DNA of 64,000 nt from Octopus sinensis. Taxonomy: Eukaryota. Shown piece by piece: positions 1 to 61,776 of this stretch. How positions within the stretch are numbered: the stretch's first letter is position 1; each line of letters begins with the position of its first letter. The notes under the pieces are model-generated. The model did no database searches. It was not told the origin of the DNA and saw only the letters and a list, made by a program, of their open reading frames with translations. The stretch covers positions 57,350,001-57,414,000 of the forward strand of contig NC_042999.1 of assembly GCF_006345805.1 (NCBI RefSeq), read 5' to 3'. The position numbers and the translations under genes are program-made.

Positions 1-1201
1 CCGGCGACATAACACGTGTTGTTTACAAATATTGACAACACGTGTTATTTTCAGGATGTTGACAACAAAATGTGCAGTCAGCAAAAATGACAACTTCCAA
101 ATCCTGTTTCCTGACTGGGTGAAAATAATCAAACTTTAAACCTCCATAACTTTTTTAAAACGTTTTTCTGGAAAAATGAAATAACTCCAGCAATTCAGTT
201 TTGGCAAGTGTTGTGCCAAATTTTGAAATTTTCGGTAAACTTTAATTTTTGGAGCTGCTGGCAACCAAAACGAAAAGATCCCATTTTCGGTTGCATCTTG
301 GCACTCCAAGAGTTTCACTGTCTTTTTTGTTTACTCGGTATACCGTAGCAATCTCCTGTTCTTGGAGTGCAAATGTATAGTCCTTGAAGTGTCATGTAGT
401 GGTCACGAAACCAAAAGAAGCTGTACTTCCTGACGCTATTATTTTTTTCAAATCTATGCAGTGTCTTCTTTTTTTGTTTTTGTTTTTTTTTTCTTTTTCC
501 AGGTCTTCTTTAAGGCATATTACTTCTGCTGTTTCGGGGCTGTACGATAGGTCATCAGGAAGAGAGTACTTCCTGAAGAGCTCACTGTCGACACAGGATG
601 TTGTTCTCTTCATTTTTCAGCACTAAGTTTATGTGTTTATTTTTGCTGCTATTGTTTAGCAGGTGCTGTCTGAGAGAGACTATACGACATCCGAAGACTG
701 ATCCCAAGTCTCCACCTCCTGCATCTTTTGTTTGGTAGAGCCTATCTTTATCGCTGTTTCTGTGGGAGCTTCCAGTTGATGCCAGGGTCTTACAGGTTTT
801 AATATCTATAAAGTGGATTTCTTCTACAGATCAGTCAAGTACCCTAAGTGTTGGAATCAGCAGTGGTACCGCAAATACATTGTGGGATGTTGTCTTGTTG
901 TAAGAGGAGAGATCCGTCTGCCATATTTTTCTAAGTCTGGTAAAATATTCTCAGGTCACTCTATCTTCATTCATGGCACTTTCTTAAATGTTTTCATCCG
1001 TGTCTAGGTATGTAAATATGTATGTGAATATTTGTGTCAACTCAGGAGTGCTACTGAAGACAGATAAGTAGTCCAGTACATGTCGCATGGACAGGTAGTT
1101 GGTAACTAAATCGGTTTGCGTGGAGAGGAGTTGCTAGGAACCCATAACAAAAACAAAACAAAACCACCGAAAGGATGGATGAACCCAACGACTATCTAGA
1201 C

Positions 1202-2047
1202 CAGTGGCTTTCAACAATTTTTTATCTATGGACCATTTTGGTTCCTGTTTTACTCGAATGGACCTTCATAGTCACCCGATGTTTGAAAAATCCTATTATA
1301 TTTTCATAATTAAATATTATTAGGAAGTGTATAAAGATTTGTTAAAATACTTTGTGCATTGTAGAAGCATAACTAACTTACTGCACATAAATTGTTGTTG
1401 GCATACTTTTGTCTCGGGAGACAATGGAGTTGCGCATAAAATAATCCAGCCTGGTTTTTAAATTTTATGTCCTTTACATTTGCTGTGGCTGTGTAGTCCT
1501 ATCCTGGACAAACACTCCCTCTGGTAGGTGACGCAGATGTAGCAAAGACTTTGCCTGGCTGGTTGTAATGTCATAGTTTCTTGTTGACGTCATTTCTTGT
1601 CATTCCATTTCTCCTCTCTCCCTCTGTCACTCCTCTGTGTTCCCTCTTCTATGGTACGTCGCCAATCTCCACGGTTGCTGGCAACTGCTTCCCAGTTGCT
1701 AATATAGATGTCGTAGGCCTTCATGTCCCTTTTGCAGACATCCTTGTACCGTAAGAACGGTCTTCCCACAGACCTAGTGCCCCTAGCAAGCTCTCCTTGA
1801 GAATTCTGCCATCTTCCATACGACTAACATGTCCAAACCATCTCATACGTCTTTGTGTGAGGAGTGCAAACATGTTTGGTATTCCTGCTTGCTTGAGGAC
1901 ATCTTTGTTGGGGACACGATCCTGACATTTGATGCGAAGGATTTTCCGGAGGCAGCGCAGGTGAAAGATATTTAGGCGACATAAATTGTAATAACAAGAT
2001 ATTATATGGAACCCTATGACCATATAGAACCCAGTTTAAAAACACTG
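1202..2047. mobile_element. hAT-like MITE, split by an RTE insertion
   Basis: Ends CAGTGGCTTTCAAC...GTTTAAAAACACTG. The internal sequence resembles the copies at 16600, 28062 and 45476. Confidence 0.6.
1396..1978 (-). mobile_element. 5'-truncated RTE-clade LINE 3' fragment
   Basis: Peptide LNIFHLRCLRKILRIKCQDRVPNKDVL...RRMRWFGHVSRMEDGR matches the RTE ORF C-terminus. Short (CAA) tail. 11-bp TSD ACATAAATTGT at 1385-1395 and 1979-1989. Confidence 0.85.
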
Positions 2048-2699
2048 ATATAGTGCTATTAGTTGTGCATCATTAGTGAGTTACATAGATATACGTGATG
2101 TGCGTGCTAAACCCCTACTTTTTGCTTTAATATCGTCCTAGAAGAAAAATACTGTTACAAAACTTGAACTTTCATCGTCTGGTTATCCCAGCCAATGCTG
2201 GGCTATTGGAAGGAAAGCTTTTTTTAATCAGAAAAGCGAGTGCAGCTCTGAGCAGTTCTGTGCATGTCTCTCTCAGTTTCATGGACAGGAACTTCTTGGA
2301 GAAGACATTATGGATAAAAGTCCTGCGGCAACGGAGAGTAGTGGTAAATATAGGCTTGACCAGCAGGAAGTATTTCATTACAAACCTATACATAGATAGT
2401 TTGGGGATATTGGTAACTTATTTCCAAGATATGTCAATGGACGAATACGTCCGCACCTCGAGTAACTGAAAATCCCTTCTGGAGAGCTCACCAGTTAGTC
2501 AGAAAGGTCACAGAAAAGATAATCGAAATAAAGCTTCCCTAATTTTGGAAGAGACAAACAACCTCAGAGCACTCACAACATGCCCACACATACACACACA
2601 TATCTCCTTCTCTTACACTCTCCTGTCTTAGAAAGAACTTTTTCTTCGCCCATTCCCTTCCGGTCATTTCAAAATATAACATGTGAATCGTTAGCGATT

Positions 2700-2850
2700 T
2701 TCTTCCTCCGTCTTCGTTTCTACCGGACTTTCCTCTGTTTCTGAAGAGTGTTGCTCGAAACTTTAAACCGTCTGCTAATATTTTACATGTACCACGTCCT
2801 CGCTTTGTTGTTTCTTTTTGTATTTGTTCTTCTTTTTTGGATTTACTATG
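2700..2850 (+). mobile_element. Putative Penelope-like element 3' tail with decayed hammerhead motif
   Basis: GTTT-CTGAAGA-gtgttgctc-GAAAC at 2737-2761. The tail 2785-2850 resembles the reverse complement of 6151-6213. Confidence 0.4.
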
Positions 2851-4092
2851 TATGTATGTATGTTTGAAAAAAGAAAGTACACAAATGGGTTGAGATTTTC
2901 TACAGCTGTTTCAGACGCGTTTTTTATTGATGAATAAACTGATTCATCATGAAAAATAAGCGTTTTCTTCAGATGAATTAAAAACTTAGAATTCAAAATT
3001 TAAAATTTGGTTTAGAAAAAATATCAACATGTATGTATGTATGTATGTATGTATGTATGTATGTATGTATGTATGTATGTATGTATGTATATATTATGTA
3101 CTTGTGAGTGTATATGTATGTTCTGGGCAAGACTCTAAACTGCGTCCAGGCCTAGAGTCCCTGATTCGGGAGTGCTAGGCTTCTGAGAAATGTACAACTA
3201 CCTCTTAACCAACATTGTTCTCAAGGTCCCGGTTATGAGTTAATTGGCATGTAAACATAAAGCACCGTGAGTGAGGGACACCATGCTGTTATCACAGCAT
3301 CCTTCTAGGAGAGGAACTCTGATGTAAAACTTGCGGTTTCGCGAGATTGCCGGTCATCTCGCTCTAGCTTGTCATTAGGTACTAATCACGGAGATTCAGA
3401 GTGGTGCTCGTGTTGTACACGTGTTTATCACTCTTATCCATTGATGTACAGATGTCTCTTTATGGTGAACCTATTTGTCATTCCATCTTGTTTAAAGTTT
3501 TATGGCGATGGGAAAGCGGTGGCGTGTACAGACCTAAGCAGTTAGAAGTGCACAGTTACAAAGGAGCGAGACTTAATAGTCATCTTGGAGGTCAGGGATA
3601 GAAAGTAAAAAGATGCTAATTTTACTCAGCTAGCAAAAATGAGATGTACCTCTGGTTCAATAGGCCAGCCTTGTCCACATACGAAGTATCAAGTTAAATC
3701 TCCCTGAAAACTATATTAAGGGGAGGCGTGTTTACGGAGTGCTCAACCACTTGTACGTTAATTTCACGGGTAGGCCGTTCTCTTGATCGGATCAACTGGA
3801 CCAAAGGACGTCGCAACCGACGGAGTGCCCCATCCATGTATGTATACATCTTTGTATGTATGCATGTATTCTTTTATTTTTTTAGTTGTTTCTGTCATTT
3901 GGCCTCGGCCATGCTGGAGTGCCGCCTTGAAAGGTTTCAGTCAAACAAATTGACTCAAGGACTTATTTTTTAGGCCTAGTACTTATTCTGGCGGTCTCTA
4001 TAAGTGGTGATGGGGAACAAAAACAGACACGCACACACATAAATACATACATATACACACATATATACATAGATACATACATACATATATAT

Positions 4093-14119: not shown

Positions 14120-14894
14120 GGCAAATCGCTACAATGTTTGGGTACCACATAAGTTGAGTGAGAAGAACATTTTGGATCGCATTTCCATCTCTGATTCGCT
14201 TTATAAACGGAATGAATACGCGCCTTTTTTAAAGCAAATTGTGACAGGTGATGAGAAATGGATTATCTACCGAAATGTTCAGAGAAAGCGATCCTGGAGT
14301 AAGTGACATGAGCCACCCTTAGCCACTCCAAAAGCGGTTCTTCACCCTAAAAAGTCTTGCTTTGTGTCTGGTGGGATTGGAAAGGAATTCTGTACTATGA
14401 GCTTCTCCCAAGTAACCAGACAATCAATTCTGAGAAATACTGCACGCAACTGGACGAGTTAAAAACAGCAATTCAAGAGAAACATCCAGAATTGGCCAAC
14501 AGGAAGGGTGTTATTTTCCAACATGATAATGCAAGACCGCACGTTTCTTTGAGAACCAGACAAAAGTTGCTGCAGCTCGGCTGGGATGTGTTACCCCAAC
14601 CTCCATTTTCACCAGATATTGCTGCTTCGGATTTCCACTTATTCAGGTCTCTGCAGAATAGTCTTAATGGTAAAAATTTCAATTCCTTGGATGACATAAA
14701 AAGATACCTTGATGAATTCTTTGCCGTGAAATCACCTCAATTCTGGGAAAATGGTATTTTCAAGTTAAAGGAAAGATGGAGACACATTGTGCAACAAAAT
14801 GGTTCATATTTGGTTGATTAAAAATGTAATGGCAAGTATTTATTGACCTTTTTCTTTCCTTTAAAAATCGGCACAAACTTTCCAGACAACCCAA
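14120..14894 (+). mobile_element. 5'-truncated mariner transposon (transposase pseudogene)
   Basis: Motifs WVPHKL, IVTGDEKW, HDNARPH, FSPDIAASDFHLF (DD34D); 3' TIR GGCACAAACTTTCCAGACAACCCAA; a stop and a frameshift near 14305-14355. Confidence 0.92.
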
Positions 14895-45779: not shown

Positions 45780-47112
45780 ATTCCCTGACAACGTATAGAA
45801 AGTGGTAGAGGCCTTATACAGCTGGAAAACTATTATAAAATAACCACCGTAGGACTGCAAAAATATCTACTTCAGAAGCAAGGAAAACTGATACAAATAG
45901 CGGCAAATCACGTGCAAAACAAAAAACTGTTCTCAGTATTTAAGGAAGCTGACAAATACAAACAAGAAATCATACTGCCTAACAAATATGAAGAAGAAGA
46001 AGAAGAAGAAGAAGAAGAAGAAGAAGAAGAAGAAGAAGAAGAAGAAGGAGAAGAAGAAGGAGGAGGAGGAGGAGGAGGAGGAGAAGGAGGAGGAGGAGAA
46101 AAAGAAGAAGAAGAAGAAGGAGGAGGAGGAGGAGAAGGAGGAGGAGGAGAAGGAGGAGGAGGAGAAGAAGAAGAAGAAGAGAAGAAGAAGAAGAAGAGAA
46201 GAAGAAGAAGAAGAAGAAGAAGAAGAAGAAGAAACAAAAGCTATAAAACAAATGAAATCCAAACTAAAACTAGAACAGCAACGGACCATGATAAAACGAT
46301 GGCAAGAAAAGCCCCTTCATGGTAAATACTGGACTAAACTAAATGCAAAAGAAATAGACAGAGAAAAATCCCAGCAATGGTTGAGAAGCTCAGGACTCAA
46401 AGTAGAGACGGGGGGATTTTTAATTGCAGCACAAGACCAAAGCCTCCCCACCAGAAATTACCAAAGACATGTAATGAAAAAAAATATAACAAGTAGCTGC
46501 AGAATATGTGGAGATGGACAAGAAACAGTAAATCATATTATCTCTGGCTACCCAGTCCTGGCTAAGAATGAATGTATTCACAGACGCGACAGAGTTGGGA
46601 GCTACATACACTGGAAGCTATGCCAACATTATGGTCACAGAAAACGAGAAAGCAACCATACTTTGGGATATGCCAATACACACAGATAGAGAAATTAAGG
46701 CCAATAGGCCAGATATAGTTGTCAGAGATCATGAAGAAAAAATGTTTTCTAATTGATGTATCAATGCCAGCAAATGACAACGTGTCTCTAAAAGAAATGG
46801 AGAAACTTTCAAAATACAAAGACCTGGAAATAGAGGTAACTCGAATGTGGAATCTAAAATTAGAAACAATTCCTATCATAGTAGGCGCATTAGGTATGAT
46901 AAAAAATATTCAGACAAATACATAACAAAAACACCAGGACTTACAAACACATATAACACAGAAAATTGCAATACTGGGCACTGCACACATCCTACGCAAA
47001 ACACTTTCAATGCAGTAACCATCAGAGCATTACAACAAATCACAGCACATACCCAAGGCACACAGAGCTGCGCTCGGTAGTGAAGTGAAAGCACGCTATA
47101 AAAATAAAACTG

Positions 47113-47115
<3 letters not shown>
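45780..47115 (+). mobile_element. 5'-truncated R4/Dong-type LINE
   Basis: WQEKPLHGKY, AAQDQSLPTRNY, CRICGDGQETVNHIISG zinc knuckle and RPDIVV...LIDVSMP RLE; followed by (TAA)n at 47116-47191. Confidence 0.9.
45990..46232 (+). repeat. (GAA)n/(GGA)n polypurine tract
   Basis: About 240 bp of purine-only triplet repeat inside the LINE ORF. Confidence 0.95.
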
Positions 47116-47194
<79 letters not shown>

Positions 47195-47364
47195 CCTCTT
47201 CACCAATCACTGTCCCAAACAATGGTAGTAGTGGTGGTGATGGTGATAATGATAAAAACAAAAATAACAATAATAAGATACTGCTGTGACTACACAAAAC
47301 AATATCACTGATGATGATGGTGCTGATGGTGATGATGATAATAATGATAGTAATAGTGCTGATA

Positions 47365-50300
47365 ATCTATCTATATAAATCAGTATACCAAATCGCTTGT
47401 CCTATGGTTAATCTGGAAGCGCGTCCCCCAGGGAAGAGCCAGCCTGGGATCGAAAAGTCATCAACTGGCACAAACTCTTCTCCGAATACGGACATGGATG
47501 GTCACTTGAACGGGAAATTCCCCAACTCGAGCCCTCCAAGTTCACCACCACAACCACCACAGAAAGAAAAATGTAAGCGGAACAAATGGACCCGAGAAGA
47601 GTATAAAGAAGTAATATACGCTTATTACTATGCATTAGGTAGGCCATCTCAAGAGAGACACACCGCAAACTCTTACAGTATATGGAGAACACGGAATCAA
47701 GACAGTAAGCCCTATTTGGACGAGAACAAATTGGCAAATGTGAGGAGGGATATCCTTAGAAATAACAGACTCACAGACAGTGAAATAAGCACGATCATGC
47801 ACGCAACGGAAAATGACATAAATATAAGACACAAAGGAAATGAAGAATCAGATGAACAGTATAGCCCGCCACGAGGCTTAATTGACCATCTGACCAAAGT
47901 ACGCAAAGGCCTGAAGATACAAGAAATTCTATTGAACCTGTTAAAGATAGCCAGGAAAATGATAAAACAACATTTGCTGAAGAACACAGAGAGTCTATGG
48001 CAGAAATGAGGCAGAAAATCCTGAATACGCTTGAAGTTGTAAGACATACAAGTATGAATGATAGAGAACCACTTCATAAACTCTCAAATACAAACCAAAA
48101 TAAAAAACAAATCAAAATTGGCAACTATGTAACAAATGAAATAATACAAGAATTAAAACCTGATTTTACTGAGTTAAATGAAATTATTTACGCTTCTGCT
48201 AGGGCAATTGAAACCAGCTGTATGCGCCCGAAAAAACAAAGAAAACCAAACCTGGGAAGAAATCAAACCCGGAGAAGTAAAATTGAAAAAGAGATTGAAT
48301 TTATGAGAGGGGAAATATCAATATTAAATGAACTAATATGTAGAAATGATGTAAGATCCAGAACAGGAAGAAAGATGAAGAGAAAATGTGGATCCTCACC
48401 AAGAGAAGAACTGATATCAATAAAAGAAACGCTGAAACAAAAAGTCCAAGCAAAAGCCCAAAGAATACGAAGATTTGAGAAGAGAAACAAGTTTTACAAG
48501 CAAAATAAGCTGTTCACATCCAATGCCAAAAAATTCTACAGAGAAATAGGGAAGGAGAAAGTAACTGTTAAAGACCCCCCTCCCATGGAAGAAGTTCAAA
48601 ACTTTTGGAAAAGGATTTGGAGTGACAAGAAGACGTACAACATAAATACAGACTGGATTATACAAACAGAAGGATCCTACCAAAATTTACAACAACAAGC
48701 ATGGGAAGACATCACAATAGCAGACCTAAGAAAGGCACTCACGAAGGCCCATAATTGGAAATCCCCCGGTAAAGATAGGGTGCCGAATTTCTGGCTCGCA
48801 TCGCTCCCATGCGCACACGGTAAGCTAGTTCAGCTGCTCAATGGAATTATGAGAGACCCAAAGAAAACACCTGAATGGTTAGCAAGTGATATTACTTACC
48901 TACTCCCAAATAATAACGAAACCAACCTTCCAAAAAACTATCGGCCTATAACCTGTCTATCCACCACGTATAAAATCCTAACATCTATCCTGGCGGAGAA
49001 AACATAAGCATTCATGGAGAAGAACGATATTTTCCCCATTGAACAAAAAGGGTGCCGCCGAGGCTCATACGGATGCAAAGATCAACTGCTAATTAATCGT
49101 ATGATCCTTGAGAACTGTCACAACAAGCGCAGAAATCTCAGCTCCGCATGGATTGACTATAAAAAGGCCTTCGACAGTATACCGCATCCATGGATCTTGG
49201 GATCGCTGGACATCTTCAAAATTTTCCCTGTGATTTCAAGCTTCCTGAAGCACAATATGTCGTTGTGAAATACGAATCTCCAATTATACCACTCTAATGG
49301 AGTACTTGCCTCAGAGAATATAAACATCAACTGTGGAATTTTTCAAGGTGACTCACTTTCACCTTTAATATTCTGCATAGCCCTAATACCCCTTACAAGT
49401 GAATTAAACAGAACAGGGTATGGGTATAAAATTGCCAATAAAAAAATAAGCCATCTATTTTATATGGATGACTTAAAACTCTATGGTAAAGACGATAATG
49501 AACTTGAAGGCCTATTGTGCACTGTGAAAGCATTCAGCGATGACATCGGGATGGAATTTGGGCTTGAGAAATGTGCCAAGGCCACTTTCCAGAAAGGGAA
49601 AGTGAAGACCACAAATTCAGTCGTGTTAGATGGTGACAGTCATTAGAGAGCTTGAGCAAGAACAAACATACAAATATTTAGGGATAAATGAAGGCTCTGG
49701 TATTCAGCATGCAAGCATGAAAGAGAAGATCAGGAAGGAATGTTATAGGAGAGTTCGTGCAGTCCTGAAATCTGAACTAAATGCACGTAACAAGGTGTTA
49801 GCTATAAATTCCTTAGCAGTTCCAGTTGTTACTTATAGCTACAATGTGTTGAATTGGAATATGAGTGAAGTAAAGAAAATAGATAGGAAAATACGCAAGC
49901 TGCTGAGTTGTAATAGGATGCACCACCCAAAGGCAGACGTAGATCGCCTTTACCTCCCCAGAGCCCAAGGAGGTCGAGGCCTGATCCAATTTGAACTAGC
50001 TTAACAATTGGACTGGCCAAATATCTTGAAATAACGAATGACTGGATGTTAAAGCTCGTGGAAAATCACGAGAGACGAAAGAAGCTTCATTCTATCATCA
50101 AGGAAAGCAAAAAATTTGCTATTGATCTCGTGCAGGATACCCAAACTGAACAACCCGAGGGAAGTACGGCAACTATTGTTGCAAAGAAGGTGAAAATAAT
50201 GGCAACGAAAAAAGCGCACGAGCAATTGGCTGATAGGTGGGAGGAGAAACCTCTGCACGGCAAATATGTGGCCCGTAGCAAACAAGCTGATGTTGACCAG

Positions 50301-51130
50301 AAGCAAACCCATCAGTGGCTACGGAGCTCAGGGCTAAAAGCAGAGAGCGAAGGTTTCATCCTGGCTGCTCAAGATCAAAGCCTATTAACCCGGAACTACC
50401 AGGCCAATGTGATGAAAAATGGAGCAGACCCAAAATGCCGATTCTGCAACGACATGATTGAAACAGTGGACCACCTAATCTCTGGATGTAAAGTCTTAGC
50501 ACCAGTGGAGTATAAAATAAGTCGGCATTACAATATCAAAACTGCCGACAAGTGGTATAATCACCACCCTGAAGCTGTAACTGAAGGAGAAAATGTAACG
50601 ATTCTGTGGGACTTTCCAGTACATACAGACCGAACCATCAAAGCCAATAAACCGGATATTGTTGTGAAAGACCAAAACAATAAAGTTTGCTTATTGATCG
50701 ACATGAGCATCTCCTGTGATCATAATATCTCGGCGAAAGAGTTTGACAAGCCCAGAAAATATAAAGACCTGCTCATTGAAATTGAGAAAATGTGGCATCT
50801 CAAGGCGGTTACAATACTAGTGATCGTAGGAGCACTAGGAATGACCAAGAAGGGAACCGAAAATTATATGAAAATGATCCCTGGCTTACCATCCCTGCAA
50901 GAAGTGCAAAAGATTGTCTTAACTGGTACATCACACGTATTGAGAAGAACATTGTCGATGTGAGAACTATTACTACCCATGTATTTGAATTTAACTTTAA
51001 AAAAAATGAACGAACTAGTGAGTTTAGTTTAATGGCGAACCAATGTATACTATGAGTTTCTTTACCCTAGGAGTCGGGAAGGCACTCGGCAAGGAATGGA
51101 AGCAAATTTGAAAGGAGAAGAAAAAAGATA
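47365..51130 (+). mobile_element. Near full-length R4/Dong-type non-LTR retrotransposon (RT plus restriction-like endonuclease), disrupted
   Basis: N-terminal RNKWTREE; RT motifs YRPITCL, QKGCRRGS, WIDYKKAFDSIPH, GIFQGDSLSPL, YMDDLKLY; CRFCNDMIETVDHLISGC; KPDIVV...LIDMSI. The ORF (about 47404-50963) is broken by several stops and frameshifts. Flanked by TAA/TGA arrays. Confidence 0.95.
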
Positions 51131-54499: not shown

Positions 54500-54933
54500 A
54501 TTTATAAAAGAACACTAACTTTTATAGCCCTATATAAACGAAGCCTAGTATATCTATCATGATTACCCGTCTGATAACGGTACACCAGACACATGCATCA
54601 CAAACATATATGCGTGACATGGTAATCTCATATCAAGATAAACAGCGCATGACCTTGCAGGTGGCGCCCGGCTAGAATTTTCTTCAGGAAACAGCGCATG
54701 ACCTTGCAGGTGGCGCCCGGCTAGAATTTTCTTCAGGTTCTCAACCTGAAGAAAATTCTAGCCGGGCGCCACCTGCAAGGTCATGCGCTGTTTATCTTGA
54801 TATGAGATCACCATGTCACGCATATATGTTTGTGATGCATGTGTCTGGTGTACCGTTATCAGACGGGTAATCATGATAGATATACTAGGCTTCGTTTATA
54901 TAGGGCTATAAAAGTTAGTGTTCTTTTATAAAT
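54500..54933. repeat. Long near-perfect palindrome with a 49-bp tandem duplication in the left arm
   Basis: Arms of about 190 bp with one mismatch seen; 3-nt loop CTC at 54740-54742; 54640-54688 is repeated at 54689-54737. Confidence 0.95.
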
Positions 54934-56978: not shown

Positions 56979-57566
56979 TATATTCGAACTGATCTACTTT
57001 GGAAGGGAGGACGCTCTGAAACTCCCATACTCTCTTCCAAAGTTGATATGGCCCGCAGAATGTGTTCCTGGATTCTCAGAACCTTCCAGTCGAGAGATTC
57101 CCACACTATTATCCTTCTCTTCTCCTCTTTTGCCCGACCCCACCTTGAATACTGCTGTCCACTGTGGTCTCCCTACACAAAACAAAATATTATGAGAATT
57201 GAAGCTCCCCAAAGGTCAATCACAAAAAAGATAGATGGCATGTCAGACCTTGACTACTGGGGTAGACTAGAGAAGCTGAAATTGTATTCACTCCAACGAC
57301 GCCGTGAACGCTACATTATCTGTATGATGTGGAAATATTCCATCAGCACTGTCCGAATGATGTTGGCATCACCTTCAAAATACATCCAAGGCTTGGACCA
57401 CGTGCCATCCGTCCACAACAAAAATCTAAATCGCATCACATAACGACAATACGGCACAACTATTTCACCTCAATTGGACCCGCTCTCTTCAACATTACAC
57501 CAGAACACGTCAAAAAAGAAACTGACCACACAAAATTCAAGAAGTCTTTGGACAAATTCCTTCAAT
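56979..57566 (+). mobile_element. CR1-type LINE 3' ORF fragment
   Basis: [44 protein letters not shown] and FKKSLDKFL; one frameshift; bounded by (TA)n. Confidence 0.9.
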
Positions 57567-57613
57567 ATATATATAACATATATATGTATGTATGTATATA
57601 TATATTATATATA

Positions 57614-57665
<52 letters not shown>

Positions 57666-57699
57666 ATATATTATATATATATATAATAAATATATATAT

Positions 57700-57757
<58 letters not shown>

Positions 57758-57862
57758 ATATATATATATATGTATGTATATATTATATATGTATGTATAT
57801 ATTTATGTATGTATATATATATATATATACTTTATTTAAAGCAGCAGAAAATTCAACAAAAT

Positions 57863-57899
57863 CTGTTACTCTGAGTTTCTCGTTGCGTTCATCAGACAG
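57863..57899 (-). ncRNA. Minimal type I hammerhead ribozyme motif in the pLTR
   Basis: CTGT-CTGATGA-ACGCAACGA-GAAA-CTCAGAG-TA-ACAG: intact core, 4-bp stem I, near-palindromic helix III; stem II is weak (A:A at its base). Confidence 0.75.
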
Positions 57900-58963
57900 T
57901 TTTTGCTAGAATGGAACCAATATATCAATTCAATCTAGACTCTTACAAACGCTACACCTTTAAAAAGAAATGGACTTGTTTGATTGGCCCTTTAGAAAAA
58001 ACGGTCAATCTTCGAGCGATAAACAAAAAGGTCAAAAATATATGTATATATATATAAAAACTTATAAAAATTATAAAATTCGAGGAAAAAACCTTACATT
58101 GAATAAAATACATAATGACATTAATGAAGAAAGTATAATTAAAGCTTAGAAATTAAACCTATTATAAATATTACACTGCAATACATATTTAAGTTAAAGC
58201 GTACATATATATATCAACATACACAGAAGGATGCGTGCAAACGCCATACATATACAGACGTATAAATATAAATCTGAAATATACACATAAATGCATGCGT
58301 ACATATATGTACACAATCCATCTCGCACGCAATTTAAAATCATCTATGTAGCGATTCTCATATACTGAGTAAGGGGGGGGGACGAAAGAAAGGAAGAGAG
58401 AGAGAAAAAGGAACGAAGAAGGGGGAAGGAAAAAAGAAAAAAGAAAAAGGAGGGGTGGGGAAAAAACGAAATAAGAAAAAATTATGTATACAAGCTATGT
58501 AACGGCATTATTGACGTGTATGGAGACATGTATACAAATACACAAGCTCGAATGGATACATACACATACAGTCGTGTATATGTGTGCTTAAGCACAAATA
58601 TACGTCCACTTACACATACACAGATACGCATGCTTACAAATACATATCCATGGCTATACACATACTTATATAAAAATTCTAATTTTTAAAGAAATGGGGA
58701 CAATAATAAAAAATATATACGAAAGACATATAAAATAAAATATAACACCCTATTTTGGATCATCTATAAAAAATCAAGGTAATCCTATACAATACAATAA
58801 CTTGAAATAAAAAGTCGAAGGTTTTTCCTAATGTATATGTCGAAACATAAGACTTTGCTATACGGATTAAAATCTGTATAACGCGGAACAAAATCCATTG
58901 TAGCGCTCACAGCTCAAGAGTCAAAATCAAAATTTCAAAAATCAAAAATACAAAATATATACT

Positions 58964-61093
58964 CTATCCATATGGTATATTCGACATTTTAAATTTAGCC
59001 GCGTGCCTACATAAGTTCATTAGCTCACTTCTTTGATTCAGAGAATTATTGTCTTTGAATAAAATGTACATTTTTTCTAATAGGCAAAGTTTGCACTTGA
59101 AATTATTTTTGTATGCTCCATGCCTGTATGGTGCCGCCCTGTCCAGAATGCTCCATGTCACTTTGAAAGGTGGAGTTTCCTTTTCTTTTAGTTCCCAGAC
59201 ATATTTTGCTAGGCTGGTCCTCTTCCTATTCTCTGGGTATTTAAATGAATTTTTATGAGAATAAAATCTTGTTTTAAATGAATTCTCTGAAGCCCCTGTG
59301 TATGTCTTGTATTCCGATGAGCCTTCTACTTGCACCTTGGCTCTATAAACTACTCCTTTCACAAGACATTTCCCTTCTAACGGACAGGAGCTTTCGTTTT
59401 TGAAATTGCATTTCTTAATGGGCTCGGCACCATGTCTAATCTCAATTAGCTTCCTATTATGCTGGCTAATGTAAGAGGCGAAATTTCTGCAACAAGAATA
59501 GCTAACCTTCAGGGTTCTTCTATTAAATATCCTATAGAATTTATGACCCTGCTTAAAATGCTTAGAGACTAATCTCAAAAATTCCTTACCTATATTAGTC
59601 TTTACGGCCAAATTGAAAGCCGGGTTGAACCACAAAACTTTCCTGGTCCTAGTTCTTCGTGCAGCATTATTATCAGCATTAAGCTGGTTGTATTGGATCT
59701 TCTCAGAGAATCCACTATTCTTTAATGCGCTATCGTAATAAGGTGCAGCATTATGGAATGCTGCCTCGTCCGAAGAAATTGAAGATATTCTTCTACCTAC
59801 ATTGCTGACTAAGTTCCTAAGGATAACTGGTGGATGGTTCGAATCTTTGCTAATATACGATAGCTTTTCATTGGGCTTACGGAAAGGTTTAAATCTATCC
59901 GACCTTACATTAAAATTTACGTCTAAAAAATCTACACTATTCAGGTTAGCATCTATCGTAACCCGTAAGCCCATCCTTTGAAAGAAAGCAATGAGGTCCT
60001 TCCTAAGTCTATCTGATTCATGGCCGTTTAGATTATGCGTGGCTATAAGGCCGTCATCCCTATATAAACCTGCATCTATAAATGGGAATTCTATTTTTAG
60101 ATTATGGAGAATAAAGGCTCCTATGAGCATACATAACTCAGCCCCGTCGTATGCCCCCATCGGTACATCGAAAAGAGAATCCTCAGTCTTCTTAATCCAG
60201 GTGGAATCCTCGAAAAAAAGAAGCGATTTCCTCGCATGCATAATAATATCAATTTCCGAGCTATCGATGTTGACATACTGCTTGGCGAAGTCCAATGCCC
60301 TTAGGAGCAACGTCCTAGATATTGACGGGTAAAAGTCAATAATGTCGAATTGTGTGAAACTACAATTATTCTTATAGCTAATACCTTTAAACCACTCTAT
60401 GACCGACTTACTATTCTTCCAAATTCTCAAGTCTACTTCACTATCTAACTTAACTAAAATACGGTCCAAAATATTTTTGCTAATAATTCCTATCTCAGTT
60501 TTAGCCGGATTTATCAATCTACATTTGGGGTTTCTACTAAAATTGGCTTTATAGTCTTTCAGAGTAATAAAAGCTGGTCGTGGTGAAAGATATTCAATCC
60601 TATCGCTAATCTTAAGATCGTTAGCTATTCCTCTTGCTTCTAAGTTCACCTCTTTGTATATATTCGTGTTGTCTTTTTTGTATGTGTCTGTGACACTATT
60701 CGAAATCAGGCGTTTATAAACGTCCTTATCAAGTGCATATAAGTTCCTTGTCTTATCAGAATTAACGAAGATCTTATTCGAGTCGTTAATCTCCTTAATT
60801 TTTTCTCTCATGTTTCTCTGTAATTGGTTGGTATATTTGCGGAATTTAATTTTCCTAATAAGCTCGTAAAGGTCCTTCTCGAAGGCTTCTAATTCCGGAA
60901 TAGGTGGCGGGTTTCTGGGAGATTTAAATCCATATTTGTTTCCTTCTACTTTCTGTTTATTATCAAAGAAGAAGGCTTTCCATCTCAATCTTCGAATAAA
61001 CTCTTCCGTTTTCTCTATAAGACCTTTGAGATATTGCTTCCGTGCAGGGATAGGTATATTTTTCTGAGAAAAATCCAGCGGGTAAAGTTCCAT
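58964..61093 (-). CDS. Penelope-like reverse transcriptase with C-terminal GIY-YIG endonuclease (709 aa)
   Basis: Uninterrupted ORF. RT motifs DKT, RLINP, FDIIDFYPSI, MGAYDGAELC, LYRDDGL, DFLDV; GIY-YIG VVYRAKV..YTGASENSFKTRFYSH; terminal CKLC..EK..LNQRSE..CRH. Confidence 0.95.
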   Translation of the reverse strand: MELYPLDFSQKNIPIPARKQYLKGLIEKTEEFIRRLRWKAFFFDNKQKVEGNKYGFKSPRNPPPIPELEAFEKDLYELIRKIKFRKYTNQLQRNMREKIKEINDSNKIFVNSDKTRNLYALDKDVYKRLISNSVTDTYKKDNTNIYKEVNLEARGIANDLKISDRIEYLSPRPAFITLKDYKANFSRNPKCRLINPAKTEIGIISKNILDRILVKLDSEVDLRIWKNSKSVIEWFKGISYKNNCSFTQFDIIDFYPSISRTLLLRALDFAKQYVNIDSSEIDIIMHARKSLLFFEDSTWIKKTEDSLFDVPMGAYDGAELCMLIGAFILHNLKIEFPFIDAGLYRDDGLIATHNLNGHESDRLRKDLIAFFQRMGLRVTIDANLNSVDFLDVNFNVRSDRFKPFRKPNEKLSYISKDSNHPPVILRNLVSNVGRRISSISSDEAAFHNAAPYYDSALKNSGFSEKIQYNQLNADNNAARRTRTRKVLWFNPAFNLAVKTNIGKEFLRLVSKHFKQGHKFYRIFNRRTLKVSYSCCRNFASYISQHNRKLIEIRHGAEPIKKCNFKNESSCPLEGKCLVKGVVYRAKVQVEGSSEYKTYTGASENSFKTRFYSHKNSFKYPENRKRTSLAKYVWELKEKETPPFKVTWSILDRAAPYRHGAYKNNFKCKLCLLEKMYILFKDNNSLNQRSELMNLCRHAAKFKMSNIPYG

Positions 61094-61284
61094 CTTTTTC
61101 AGCTGTTTGTTCTTCCTACTTGTGCAGAGTCGGTCAAACTTTTATAAGGAGCGGGTTACACGAAAAACTCAGAGTAACAGATTTTGTTGAATTTTCTGCT
61201 GCTTTAAATAAAGCATATTACTCTACCACTGGTATTTGAGTACTCTTTTTTCCACCTTGTTTCACATTTATGTGTTTACTCCGG

Positions 61285-61346
<62 letters not shown>

Positions 61347-61376
61347 TATATTCATATACATATATATGTATATATA

Positions 61377-61776
61377 TCTTATATATAAAAGTGACGTTGT
61401 GTGCTGTCTGTCTCCTACGATTTAGATTCCTAACTACTCCCACTTTTTGCGGTGCAGTTTAACCAAAATCCGAGTATCTTATAGTCGTGATTCATATCGA
61501 GCCCTTCTGGGTATTAGTGCACGTCTACGGTGAGTCTACGATTAAAAAAAAAATTACCATCAATTTTTCCCATTTTTAATGCATTTTTGGCATATATAAG
61601 GGAAGTAACTCTCTAAAAAATTATTATTAAATCTCAGAACGTAAAAAGCTACAGTAACACCCCCACCCCCCTTTGTGGTTAGCCATATTGAGATGGCTAT
61701 TATACTTTACATCTCTAAAAATGCTTATATAGTAATTTCCCTTACAAACCCGAGCAACGCCGGGTGATACTGCTAG
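61377..61776 (+). mobile_element. Non-autonomous Helitron
   Basis: A|TC start; subterminal hairpin CCCGAGCAACGCCGGG; CTAG|T end. Its 3' end is shared with 42246-42629. Confidence 0.85.

What the first reader, a model, noticed from the sequence alone, without database searches (positions are those of the whole stretch)
57830..61285. Intact Naiad-type Penelope-like element: a possibly active (TA)n-targeting RT/GIY-YIG retroelement
This is the only undisrupted long ORF in a window of decayed TEs. Catalytic RT aspartates (FDI, YRDD) and GIY-YIG residues are present, both ends abut (TA)n and the terminal inverted repeats are identical, implying recent insertion. One likely linker Cys reads F (CNFK...CPLEGKC), which may be a copy-specific defect (inference).
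Basis: partly seen in the sequence, partly recalled or inferred. Interest (0 to 1): 0.75.

Follow-up and report, generated by a model that had tools for sequence, protein, structure and literature searches.

The report
Retrotransposon with a built-in mutation hotspot
This is a Hydra-type (not Naiad) Penelope-like jumping gene, and about four in five of its genomic copies carry the same one-letter change that removes an otherwise invariant cysteine; the change arose again and again, likely while the element's RNA is copied into DNA, which would leave most new copies unable to jump on their own.

Summary
The ORF, catalytic residues and (TA)n flanks are real, but the element is not a Naiad. It has RT then a C-terminal GIY-YIG, RWK, DKT, a CxCX5C linker, no CCHH and a hammerhead motif, which places it in the Hydra clade. 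The window copy is probably not an active source (C564F, H181Y, no upstream direct pLTR). The Cys-to-Phe change is not copy-specific. At that base 251 of 317 matching genomic units read T, 57 G, 6 A and 3 C, while 119 of 119 homologues have Cys. The state is unlinked to all flanking subfamily markers, even one 5 nt away. It is independent of copy age, present in two independent read sets, and differs between units of one insertion (8 of 35). Copies with the synonymous TGT codon keep G (23 of 23), as does the same 11-mer elsewhere in the ORF (66 of 66). Best reading: Cys-coding sources produce G-to-T daughters at each round, likely because the RT misreads a site-specifically altered G in the RNA; the chemistry is untested. 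Earlier scan notes describe other Hydra elements, not this hotspot.

The parts
57565..57829 (.). (TA)n target array at the element's 3' end
   Evidence: sequence
57830..61161 (-). Main unit of a Hydra-clade Penelope-like element (68-nt leader, ORF, about 1.13-kb 3' UTR)
   Evidence: most near-full-length copies align over query 130-3461; unit boundaries in tandem copies
58964..61093 (-). ORF, 709 aa: N-terminal region with RWK (37-39) and DKT (113-115), TERT-like RT, linker, C-terminal GIY-YIG
60053..60346 (-). RT catalytic aspartates D250 (FDI) and D346/D347 (YRDD)
   Evidence: 119 of 119 homologues
60551..60553 (-). H181Y, a rare defect of this copy at an invariant His
   Evidence: His in 119 of 119 homologues and 59 of 60 other copies
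59366..59410 (-). Cys linker C562-N-[F564]-X5-C570-X5-C576 (Hydra CxCX5C motif, second Cys lost here)
59403..59403 (-). Hotspot base, middle of codon 564: T here and in 251 of 317 units, G in 57, A in 6, C in 3
59402..59402 (-). Third base of codon 564: C here; all 23 units with T at this place keep G at the hotspot
59003..59353 (-). GIY-YIG nuclease (VVY...YTG, R609, H613, CxxC 667-670, E673, N686, CxH 695-697; no CCHH)
57863..57899 (-). Minimal type I hammerhead motif (CUGU-CUGAUGA-stem II-GAA-ACUC-A-GAGU-A-ACAG); this copy lacks one G of the stem-II loop
   Evidence: sequence compared by eye with the Hydra motifs in File S2 of PMC8557442; cleavage untested; single-strand folding gave no support (z 0.04)
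57830..57878 (-). Left arm of the inverted repeat = 3' terminus of the main unit
61165..61213 (+). Right arm = inverted, 5'-truncated second unit
61214..61284 (+). 71-nt tail of the inverted unit; in tandem copies it lies between one unit's 3' end and the next unit's start
61285..61387 (.). (TA)n target array at the other end

Best explanation
This is a Hydra-clade Penelope-like retrotransposon whose cysteine-coding source copies give rise, again and again, to daughters with G-to-T at the middle base of linker codon 564, most likely because the element's reverse transcriptase puts A opposite a site-specifically altered guanosine in the RNA template, and these Phe daughters (the window copy among them) would likely be poor or dead sources. 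Steps: (1) RT plus C-terminal GIY-YIG, (TA)n insertion, tandem and inverted units, two fixed 3' ends: shown in sequence; nick-and-prime mechanism taken from the related PAc element (PMC11167929). (2) G-to-T recurs from G sources and is fixed at or near insertion: strongly inferred from copy genetics (about 0.85). (3) It needs the C after the G plus wider context: shown as a correlation. (4) The cause is a miscoding, non-blocking change of that G in the RNA (8-oxoG-like, read as A or C): inferred, untested (about 0.5). (5) Phe copies are defective, which is why the hotspot persists instead of fixing: inferred.
For: Cys564 in 119 of 119 homologues. Genome-wide T 251, G 57, A 6, C 3 of 317, plus 2 deletions. 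Same ratio on both alleles of a marker 5 nt upstream: G in 8 of 54 and 49 of 263, Fisher p 0.57. Maximum r2 0.03 with 28 other informative sites and retention index 0.23, against 0.75-1.0 at 23 of the 28 (sample enriched for non-T). Units of one insertion differ at the site in 8 of 35 multi-unit insertions, including units that share a rare variant (L106) or a young haplotype (L119 T/G/T, L120 G/deletion). No age effect: p 0.91, and 16 T to 3 G among the youngest copies. Contigs of two independent read sets give 71% and 80% T. TGT-codon units keep G in 23 of 23, a young TGT clade marked by one linked variant gives 10 G and 0 T, and all 6 multi-unit TGT insertions are concordant. The same 11-mer elsewhere in the ORF keeps G in 66 of 66. 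Other Hydra families in this genome keep G in 93 of the first 100 of 1,336 matches (counted by eye). No mirror C-to-A change at the next base, so the event is strand-specific. RTs insert A or C opposite 8-oxoG, giving G-to-T (PMC13555933, passages).
Against: No direct RNA evidence: the RNA-like runs were contigs only and uninformative. No pile-up of 5' truncations into (TA)n at the site (0 matches), which argues against blocking marks such as m1G or m2,2G (high arrest rates, PMC7144921 passages). Abasic RNA would give A and G insertion about equally with HIV-1 RT (PMC2175328 abstract), not 96% T. No stable RNA structure or tRNA mimic at the site. I know no process that alters one mRNA guanosine at near-stoichiometric level. 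Units within an insertion agree more often than independent misreading predicts (7 all-G of 15 insertions with a non-T unit). One young sublineage keeps G more often (9 G to 1 T in a G-enriched sample), so the rate varies or some T copies act as sources in trans. No sampled full-length Cys-coding copy has an open frame in this assembly, so the G masters are inferred, not seen. An earlier AI note reports Hydra elements that lack the linker yet sit in (TA)n (untested), which weakens step 5.
Confidence: 0.5

Rival explanations
1. The change is templated: the RT or the second-strand polymerase briefly misaligns and copies a neighbouring or partner base. Candidates are dislocation onto the next U, the quasi-palindrome GAAAT-GYA-ATT[G]C that G-to-T perfects, and the 8-9-nt direct repeat about 300 nt downstream. 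No base is chemically altered.
For: Outcome is almost purely T (251 of 260 non-G); 2 deletions; no arrest signal. A following C would be needed to re-anneal, which also explains TGT immunity. The control 11-mer lacks the palindrome's left arm.
Against: The local stem has only 3 seed pairs, and 14 quasi-palindromes of the same geometry in 1,287 nt show no such hotspot. A second-strand switch would give a mismatch and hardly more than 50%. An 11-nt inverted donor in the 3' UTR is present in only 10 of 93 scored insertions, mostly old, and T is common without it. The direct repeat offers only 3 nt of primer pairing and the marker 5 nt upstream is not co-converted.
Confidence: 0.25
2. T is an inherited allele: a few Phe source copies are mobilised in trans by Cys-coding protein, and mixing between RNAs spreads T across subfamilies.
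For: Units of one insertion are often concordant; a 4-insertion sublineage that includes the window copy is all T; the rate differs between sublineages. It probably contributes to the 79%.
Against: It needs double crossovers within a few bases in every subfamily, while neighbouring markers are tightly linked. G and T occur at the same ratio on both alleles 5 nt away. T/G/T and G/deletion occur within single insertions of one young haplotype.
Confidence: 0.12
3. The masters code Phe and G arises by recurrent T-to-G misreading.
For: T is the majority; 5 of 18 full-length T units have an open frame and none of the Cys-coding ones sampled does; all-G clades need no special immunity under this reading.
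Against: It requires an active protein without a Cys kept in 119 of 119 homologues, and misreading that restores exactly the ancestral base although T-to-G is among the rarest private changes. All 4 apparent origins of the C-to-T change at the next base lie on G and none on T (p about 0.001).
Confidence: 0.08
4. A DNA mutation hotspot acting after insertion, or an assembly or polishing artefact.
For: Many copies show single-base indels that look like assembly errors.
Against: Independent read sets give the same mix; no age dependence; the change is one-sided within a palindromic hexamer; the same 11-mer elsewhere is untouched.
Confidence: 0.05

Closest known systems
Hydra clade of C-terminal EN+ Penelope-like elements (Craig et al. 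2021, PMC8557442; e.g. Hydra-1_Obim, Hydra-2_Amil)
   Same: Domain order, RWK, DKT, CxCX5C-type linker, CxxC and CxH beside E and N, no CCHH, type I hammerhead (stem I CUGU/ACAG and stem III ACUC/GAGU as in Hydra-2_aMil), (TA)n insertion.
   Different: Longer unit (3.33 kb against generally under 3 kb); hammerhead differs from Hydra-1_Obim, so it is another family; majority loss of the second linker Cys by a recurrent change is not mentioned in the sections read.
Naiad clade (PMC8557442)
   Same: Penelope-like RT, GIY-YIG nuclease, (TA)n preference, tandem and inverted units with a tail.
   Different: Naiads have the nuclease at the N-terminus, DKA, a CCHH motif and no canonical hammerhead; none of these holds here.
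PAc, Poseidon element of Anolis (Frangieh et al. 2024, PMC11167929)
   Same: C-terminal GIY-YIG, AT-rich cleavage, two RT start sites that explain ends with and without a tail, as seen here (80 ends without, 50 with tail before TA).
   Different: Other clade; tail here 71 nt; no hotspot mentioned in the part read.
RT misincorporation signatures at altered bases (m1G and m2,2G in tRNA, PMC8062790 and PMC7144921; 8-oxoG and abasic RNA, PMC13555933 and PMC2175328; branch G, PMC6298571); adenine mutagenesis of diversity-generating retroelements (PMC7826257, search listing only)
   Same: A template base that an RT reads wrongly at high rate, leaving a site-specific signature in cDNA.
   Different: Here the signature is fixed in germline copies of a eukaryotic retrotransposon, hits one G and appears to destroy function; branch G gives G-to-C with M-MLV RT, not G-to-T.

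Membership tests
Naiad | GIY-YIG nuclease N-terminal to RT | tested here: not met
   RT motifs at 250-347, nuclease at 581-697
Naiad | DKG motif modified to DKA | tested here: not met
   DKT at 113-115
Naiad | CCHH motif with two Cys inside the GIY-YIG core | tested here: not met
   no Cys between VVY (581-583) and YTG (598-600)
Naiad | No canonical hammerhead | tested here: not met
   type I motif at 57863-57899, core found in 133 of 143 ends
Hydra | Single ORF, RT followed by C-terminal GIY-YIG | tested here: met
Hydra | RWK motif and DKT | tested here: met
   R37-W38-K39, D113-K114-T115 (definition)
Hydra | CxCX5C linker | tested here: met
   met by spacing and in the Cys-coding copies of the family; the window copy itself has Phe at the second Cys
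Hydra | No CCHH; CxxC and CxH beside the conserved E and N | tested here: met
   C667-x-x-C670, E673, N686, C695-R-H697
Hydra | Canonical hammerhead near the 3' end | tested here: met
   motif match by eye to File S2; not found by Rfam; cleavage untested
Hydra | Insertion into (TA)n | tested here: met
   130 of 174 scored 3' ends run into TA, 27 into a next unit, 17 unclear or other; window background 3.0% (loci were picked by ORF match, not by flank)
Hydra | RT groups with the published Hydra references in a tree | not tested
   the references were visible only as supplement text, not as stored sequences; compared by eye only
Penelope-like elements | TERT-like RT; tandem and inverted pLTR structures with a tail | tested here: met
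   TERT structures rank 1-3; 35 multi-unit insertions; tail

The most novel reading that the evidence does not exclude
One guanosine in a retrotransposon's coding RNA is site-specifically modified or damaged in the germline, so that most new copies are born without an essential zinc-ligand cysteine. This would be a recoding brake on transposition, by host or element, recorded in hundreds of genomic copies, from which a synonymous TGC-to-TGT mutation escapes.
Probability: 0.35. Interest if true: 0.9.

Novelty: new variant of a known kind. Interest (0 to 1): 0.7.

Why it matters
The element itself is a new family of a described clade and is ordinary. The hotspot is not. A single base changes at a rate hundreds of times the background (about 0.4% non-majority letters per quiet site), always to the loss of an invariant residue, and natural escape variants exist. 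If it comes from an altered RNA base, it points to an unknown site-specific RNA chemistry and a new way of limiting transposon spread, and genomic copies become a fossil record of germline RNA modification. If it comes from the RT, it is an extreme context-dependent error of a telomerase-like enzyme. The two are easy to tell apart in vitro. Practically, a majority consensus of this family would code the probably defective protein.

Tried and rejected
Pfam found no family in the ORF and no useful family in 6 of 7 homologues. The profile found no real PDB match by sequence. Rfam missed the hammerhead and single-strand folding gave z 0.04. No tRNA-like fold by ARAGORN in 3 loci; folding around the site was unstable. 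An 11-nt inverted donor in the 3' UTR was rejected as the cause. A search for truncations at the site found none; it covered only junctions to (TA)n. No RNA holder on record was listed; two runs guessed to be RNA held contigs over the site (one G only; one T and G), which shows nothing about expression. One search, laid on the T-state window, did not list the site, so I repeated the test on a G-state locus. One search used a mistyped control pattern (0 matches), corrected. Private substitutions show no strand bias for G-to-T or A-to-G overall, so there is no sign of general RNA oxidation or editing. A 2',5'-branch G was set aside because it gives G-to-C with M-MLV RT. Rows dropped: L005-L007 as duplicates of L004; P0002 (1,086 aa) left out of the 119-protein count; linkage and tree counts use one unit per insertion. 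Insertion polymorphism and target-site duplication could not be assessed.

Full report
Observation. The window holds one long open frame, 709 aa from ATG 61093 to the stop at 58964 on the minus strand; the other 15 frames of 150 aa or more are repeats or fragments of decayed elements. The element lies between (TA)n arrays at 57565-57829 and 61285-61387. The inverted repeat is 49 nt identical (57830-57878 and 61165-61213), but the right arm is followed by a 71-nt tail before the TA array. In tandem copies the same tail lies between one unit's 3' end and the next unit's start. The arm is therefore an inverted, truncated second unit, an arrangement described for Penelope-like elements.

Identity. 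An AlphaFold model (mean pLDDT 93.7) matches telomerase RT best, and residues 540-709 match GIY-YIG clusters by features. Craig et al. (PMC8557442; abstract, introduction, four further sections, part 2 of the supplement and search hits read) define Naiads by an N-terminal nuclease, DKA, CCHH and no canonical hammerhead, and Hydra by a C-terminal nuclease, RWK, DKT, a CxCX5C linker, no CCHH, a hammerhead and (TA)n targets. This element fails the four Naiad features tested and meets the six Hydra features tested. I did not build a tree with the published references. The host looks like an octopus (recalled impression, also said in unchecked notes); this was not tested.

Family and age. A DNA search scored 32 of 2,065 candidates and returned many near-full-length copies; 317 units match a 31-nt pattern in the nuclease linker. 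ORF distances run from 0.05% to about 3%. Of 174 scored 3' ends, 80 run directly into TA, 50 through the tail into TA and 27 into a next unit, against 3.0% background. Two fixed ends fit the two RT start sites shown for PAc (PMC11167929; abstract and part 1 of 2 of the main text). The window copy is 1.23% from its nearest sampled relative. It has H181Y at an invariant His, lacks one G of the hammerhead loop, lacks 6 nt near the stop and has no upstream direct pLTR. It is an open frame, but probably not an active source.

The Phe. Cys564 is kept in 119 of 119 homologues, yet the middle base of the codon reads T in 251 of 317 units, G in 57, A in 6 and C in 3, and is deleted in 2 more. Contigs from two independent read sets give 71% and 80% T, so this is not an assembly artefact. 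Among 82 insertions the state has r2 of at most 0.03 with 28 other informative sites and needs 13 of at most 16 steps on a tree built without it, while 23 of the 28 have retention indices of 0.75-1.0 (sample enriched for non-T copies). Genome-wide, G makes up 8 of 54 and 49 of 263 on the two alleles of a marker only 5 nt away. G and T copies carry the same load of private changes (p 0.91), so T is set at or near insertion. In 8 of 35 multi-unit insertions the units differ at this base, some while sharing a rare variant or a young haplotype.

Natural controls. Where the next base is T (codon TGT, still Cys), 23 of 23 units keep G. They fall in 17 insertions with 4 apparent origins, and a young clade marked by one linked variant has 10 G and no T members. 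The same 11-mer about 1.4 kb upstream keeps G in 66 of 66. Other Hydra families keep G in 93 of the first 100 of 1,336 matches (by eye). The change is thus specific to this family and site, depends on the following C and on wider context, and is one-sided although the hexamer is palindromic.

Mechanism. The simplest account is that sources code Cys, that G-to-T arises anew when they are copied, and that Phe daughters are dead ends; a hotspot at a dispensable base would have fixed and vanished (inference). The step I commit to is misreading of an altered G in the RNA. An almost pure G-to-T outcome without arrest fits an 8-oxoG-like base, read as A or C (PMC13555933, passages). It fits less well with m1G or m2,2G (PMC8062790 and PMC7144921, passages), abasic RNA (PMC2175328, abstract) or a branch G (PMC6298571, abstract and passages). 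No RNA-level evidence was obtained. Templated misalignment remains a serious rival: G-to-T perfects a 5-bp quasi-palindrome, but 14 such sites in 1,287 nt are quiet, and a 3' UTR donor was rejected. Against a simple constant rate, units of one insertion agree more than chance (7 all-G of 15, 5 of them with near-identical truncation points that suggest DNA-level duplication) and one sublineage keeps G more often. T copies mobilised in trans may add to the 79%. No intact Cys-coding full-length copy was seen among 36 full-length units or the further ones; many breaks are single-base indels that may be assembly errors.

Novelty. Nine literature searches listed nothing that describes such a hotspot in a retrotransposon. 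The library lacks most subscription journals, and I read only parts of the Craig et al. supplement. Part 1 of 5 of a retrozyme preprint (10.64898/2026.07.22.740005) gave background only. The scan's notes hold no look-alike of this protein; two notes on other Hydra elements report lineages without the linker, which I did not test. Verdict: a new Hydra family, mislabelled Naiad, ordinary as an element but carrying a strongly supported and unexplained per-transposition mutation at an invariant cysteine. Interest 0.7.

Noticed in passing
window 59075, 59091 and 59090 (minus strand): A/G sites in the nuclease region that are weakly linked to subfamily markers. G at 59075 is commoner in Phe copies (29 of 64) than in TGC copies (7 of 42) or TGT copies (0 of 17), p 0.003. 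This may be A-to-I editing fixed by reverse transcription, or clade structure.
   Followed up: partly
G000: At least 1,336 linker matches from many other Hydra families, including one abundant, very uniform family (e.g. L136, L137, L140-L142): the clade is far more diverse in this genome than the single cephalopod family listed in PMC8557442.
   Followed up: no
L062, L091, L092, L113, L060, L051: Inverted unit pairs with the same or nearly the same 5' truncation point, suggesting fold-back copying of the first cDNA.
   Followed up: partly
window 59402: C-to-T at the third codon base arose about 4 times, always on G; it may be selected escape or another outcome of the same event.
   Followed up: partly
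window 61138-61145 (minus strand): TATA-like TATAAAAG about 45 nt upstream of the ATG; it is not kept in the young subfamily (TGTAAAAG).
   Followed up: partly
window 45789-50963 (+): Decayed non-LTR retrotransposon pieces (RT and zf-RVT-like); from recall they resemble R2/R4-type elements.
   Followed up: no
window 14351-14821 (+): Mariner-type transposase fragment (PF01359).
   Followed up: no
window 56980-57565 (+): 3' fragment of a LINE (CR1/L2-like, from recall) between TA arrays, directly beside the element.
   Followed up: no
window 54640-54737: Perfect 49-bp tandem duplication.
   Followed up: no
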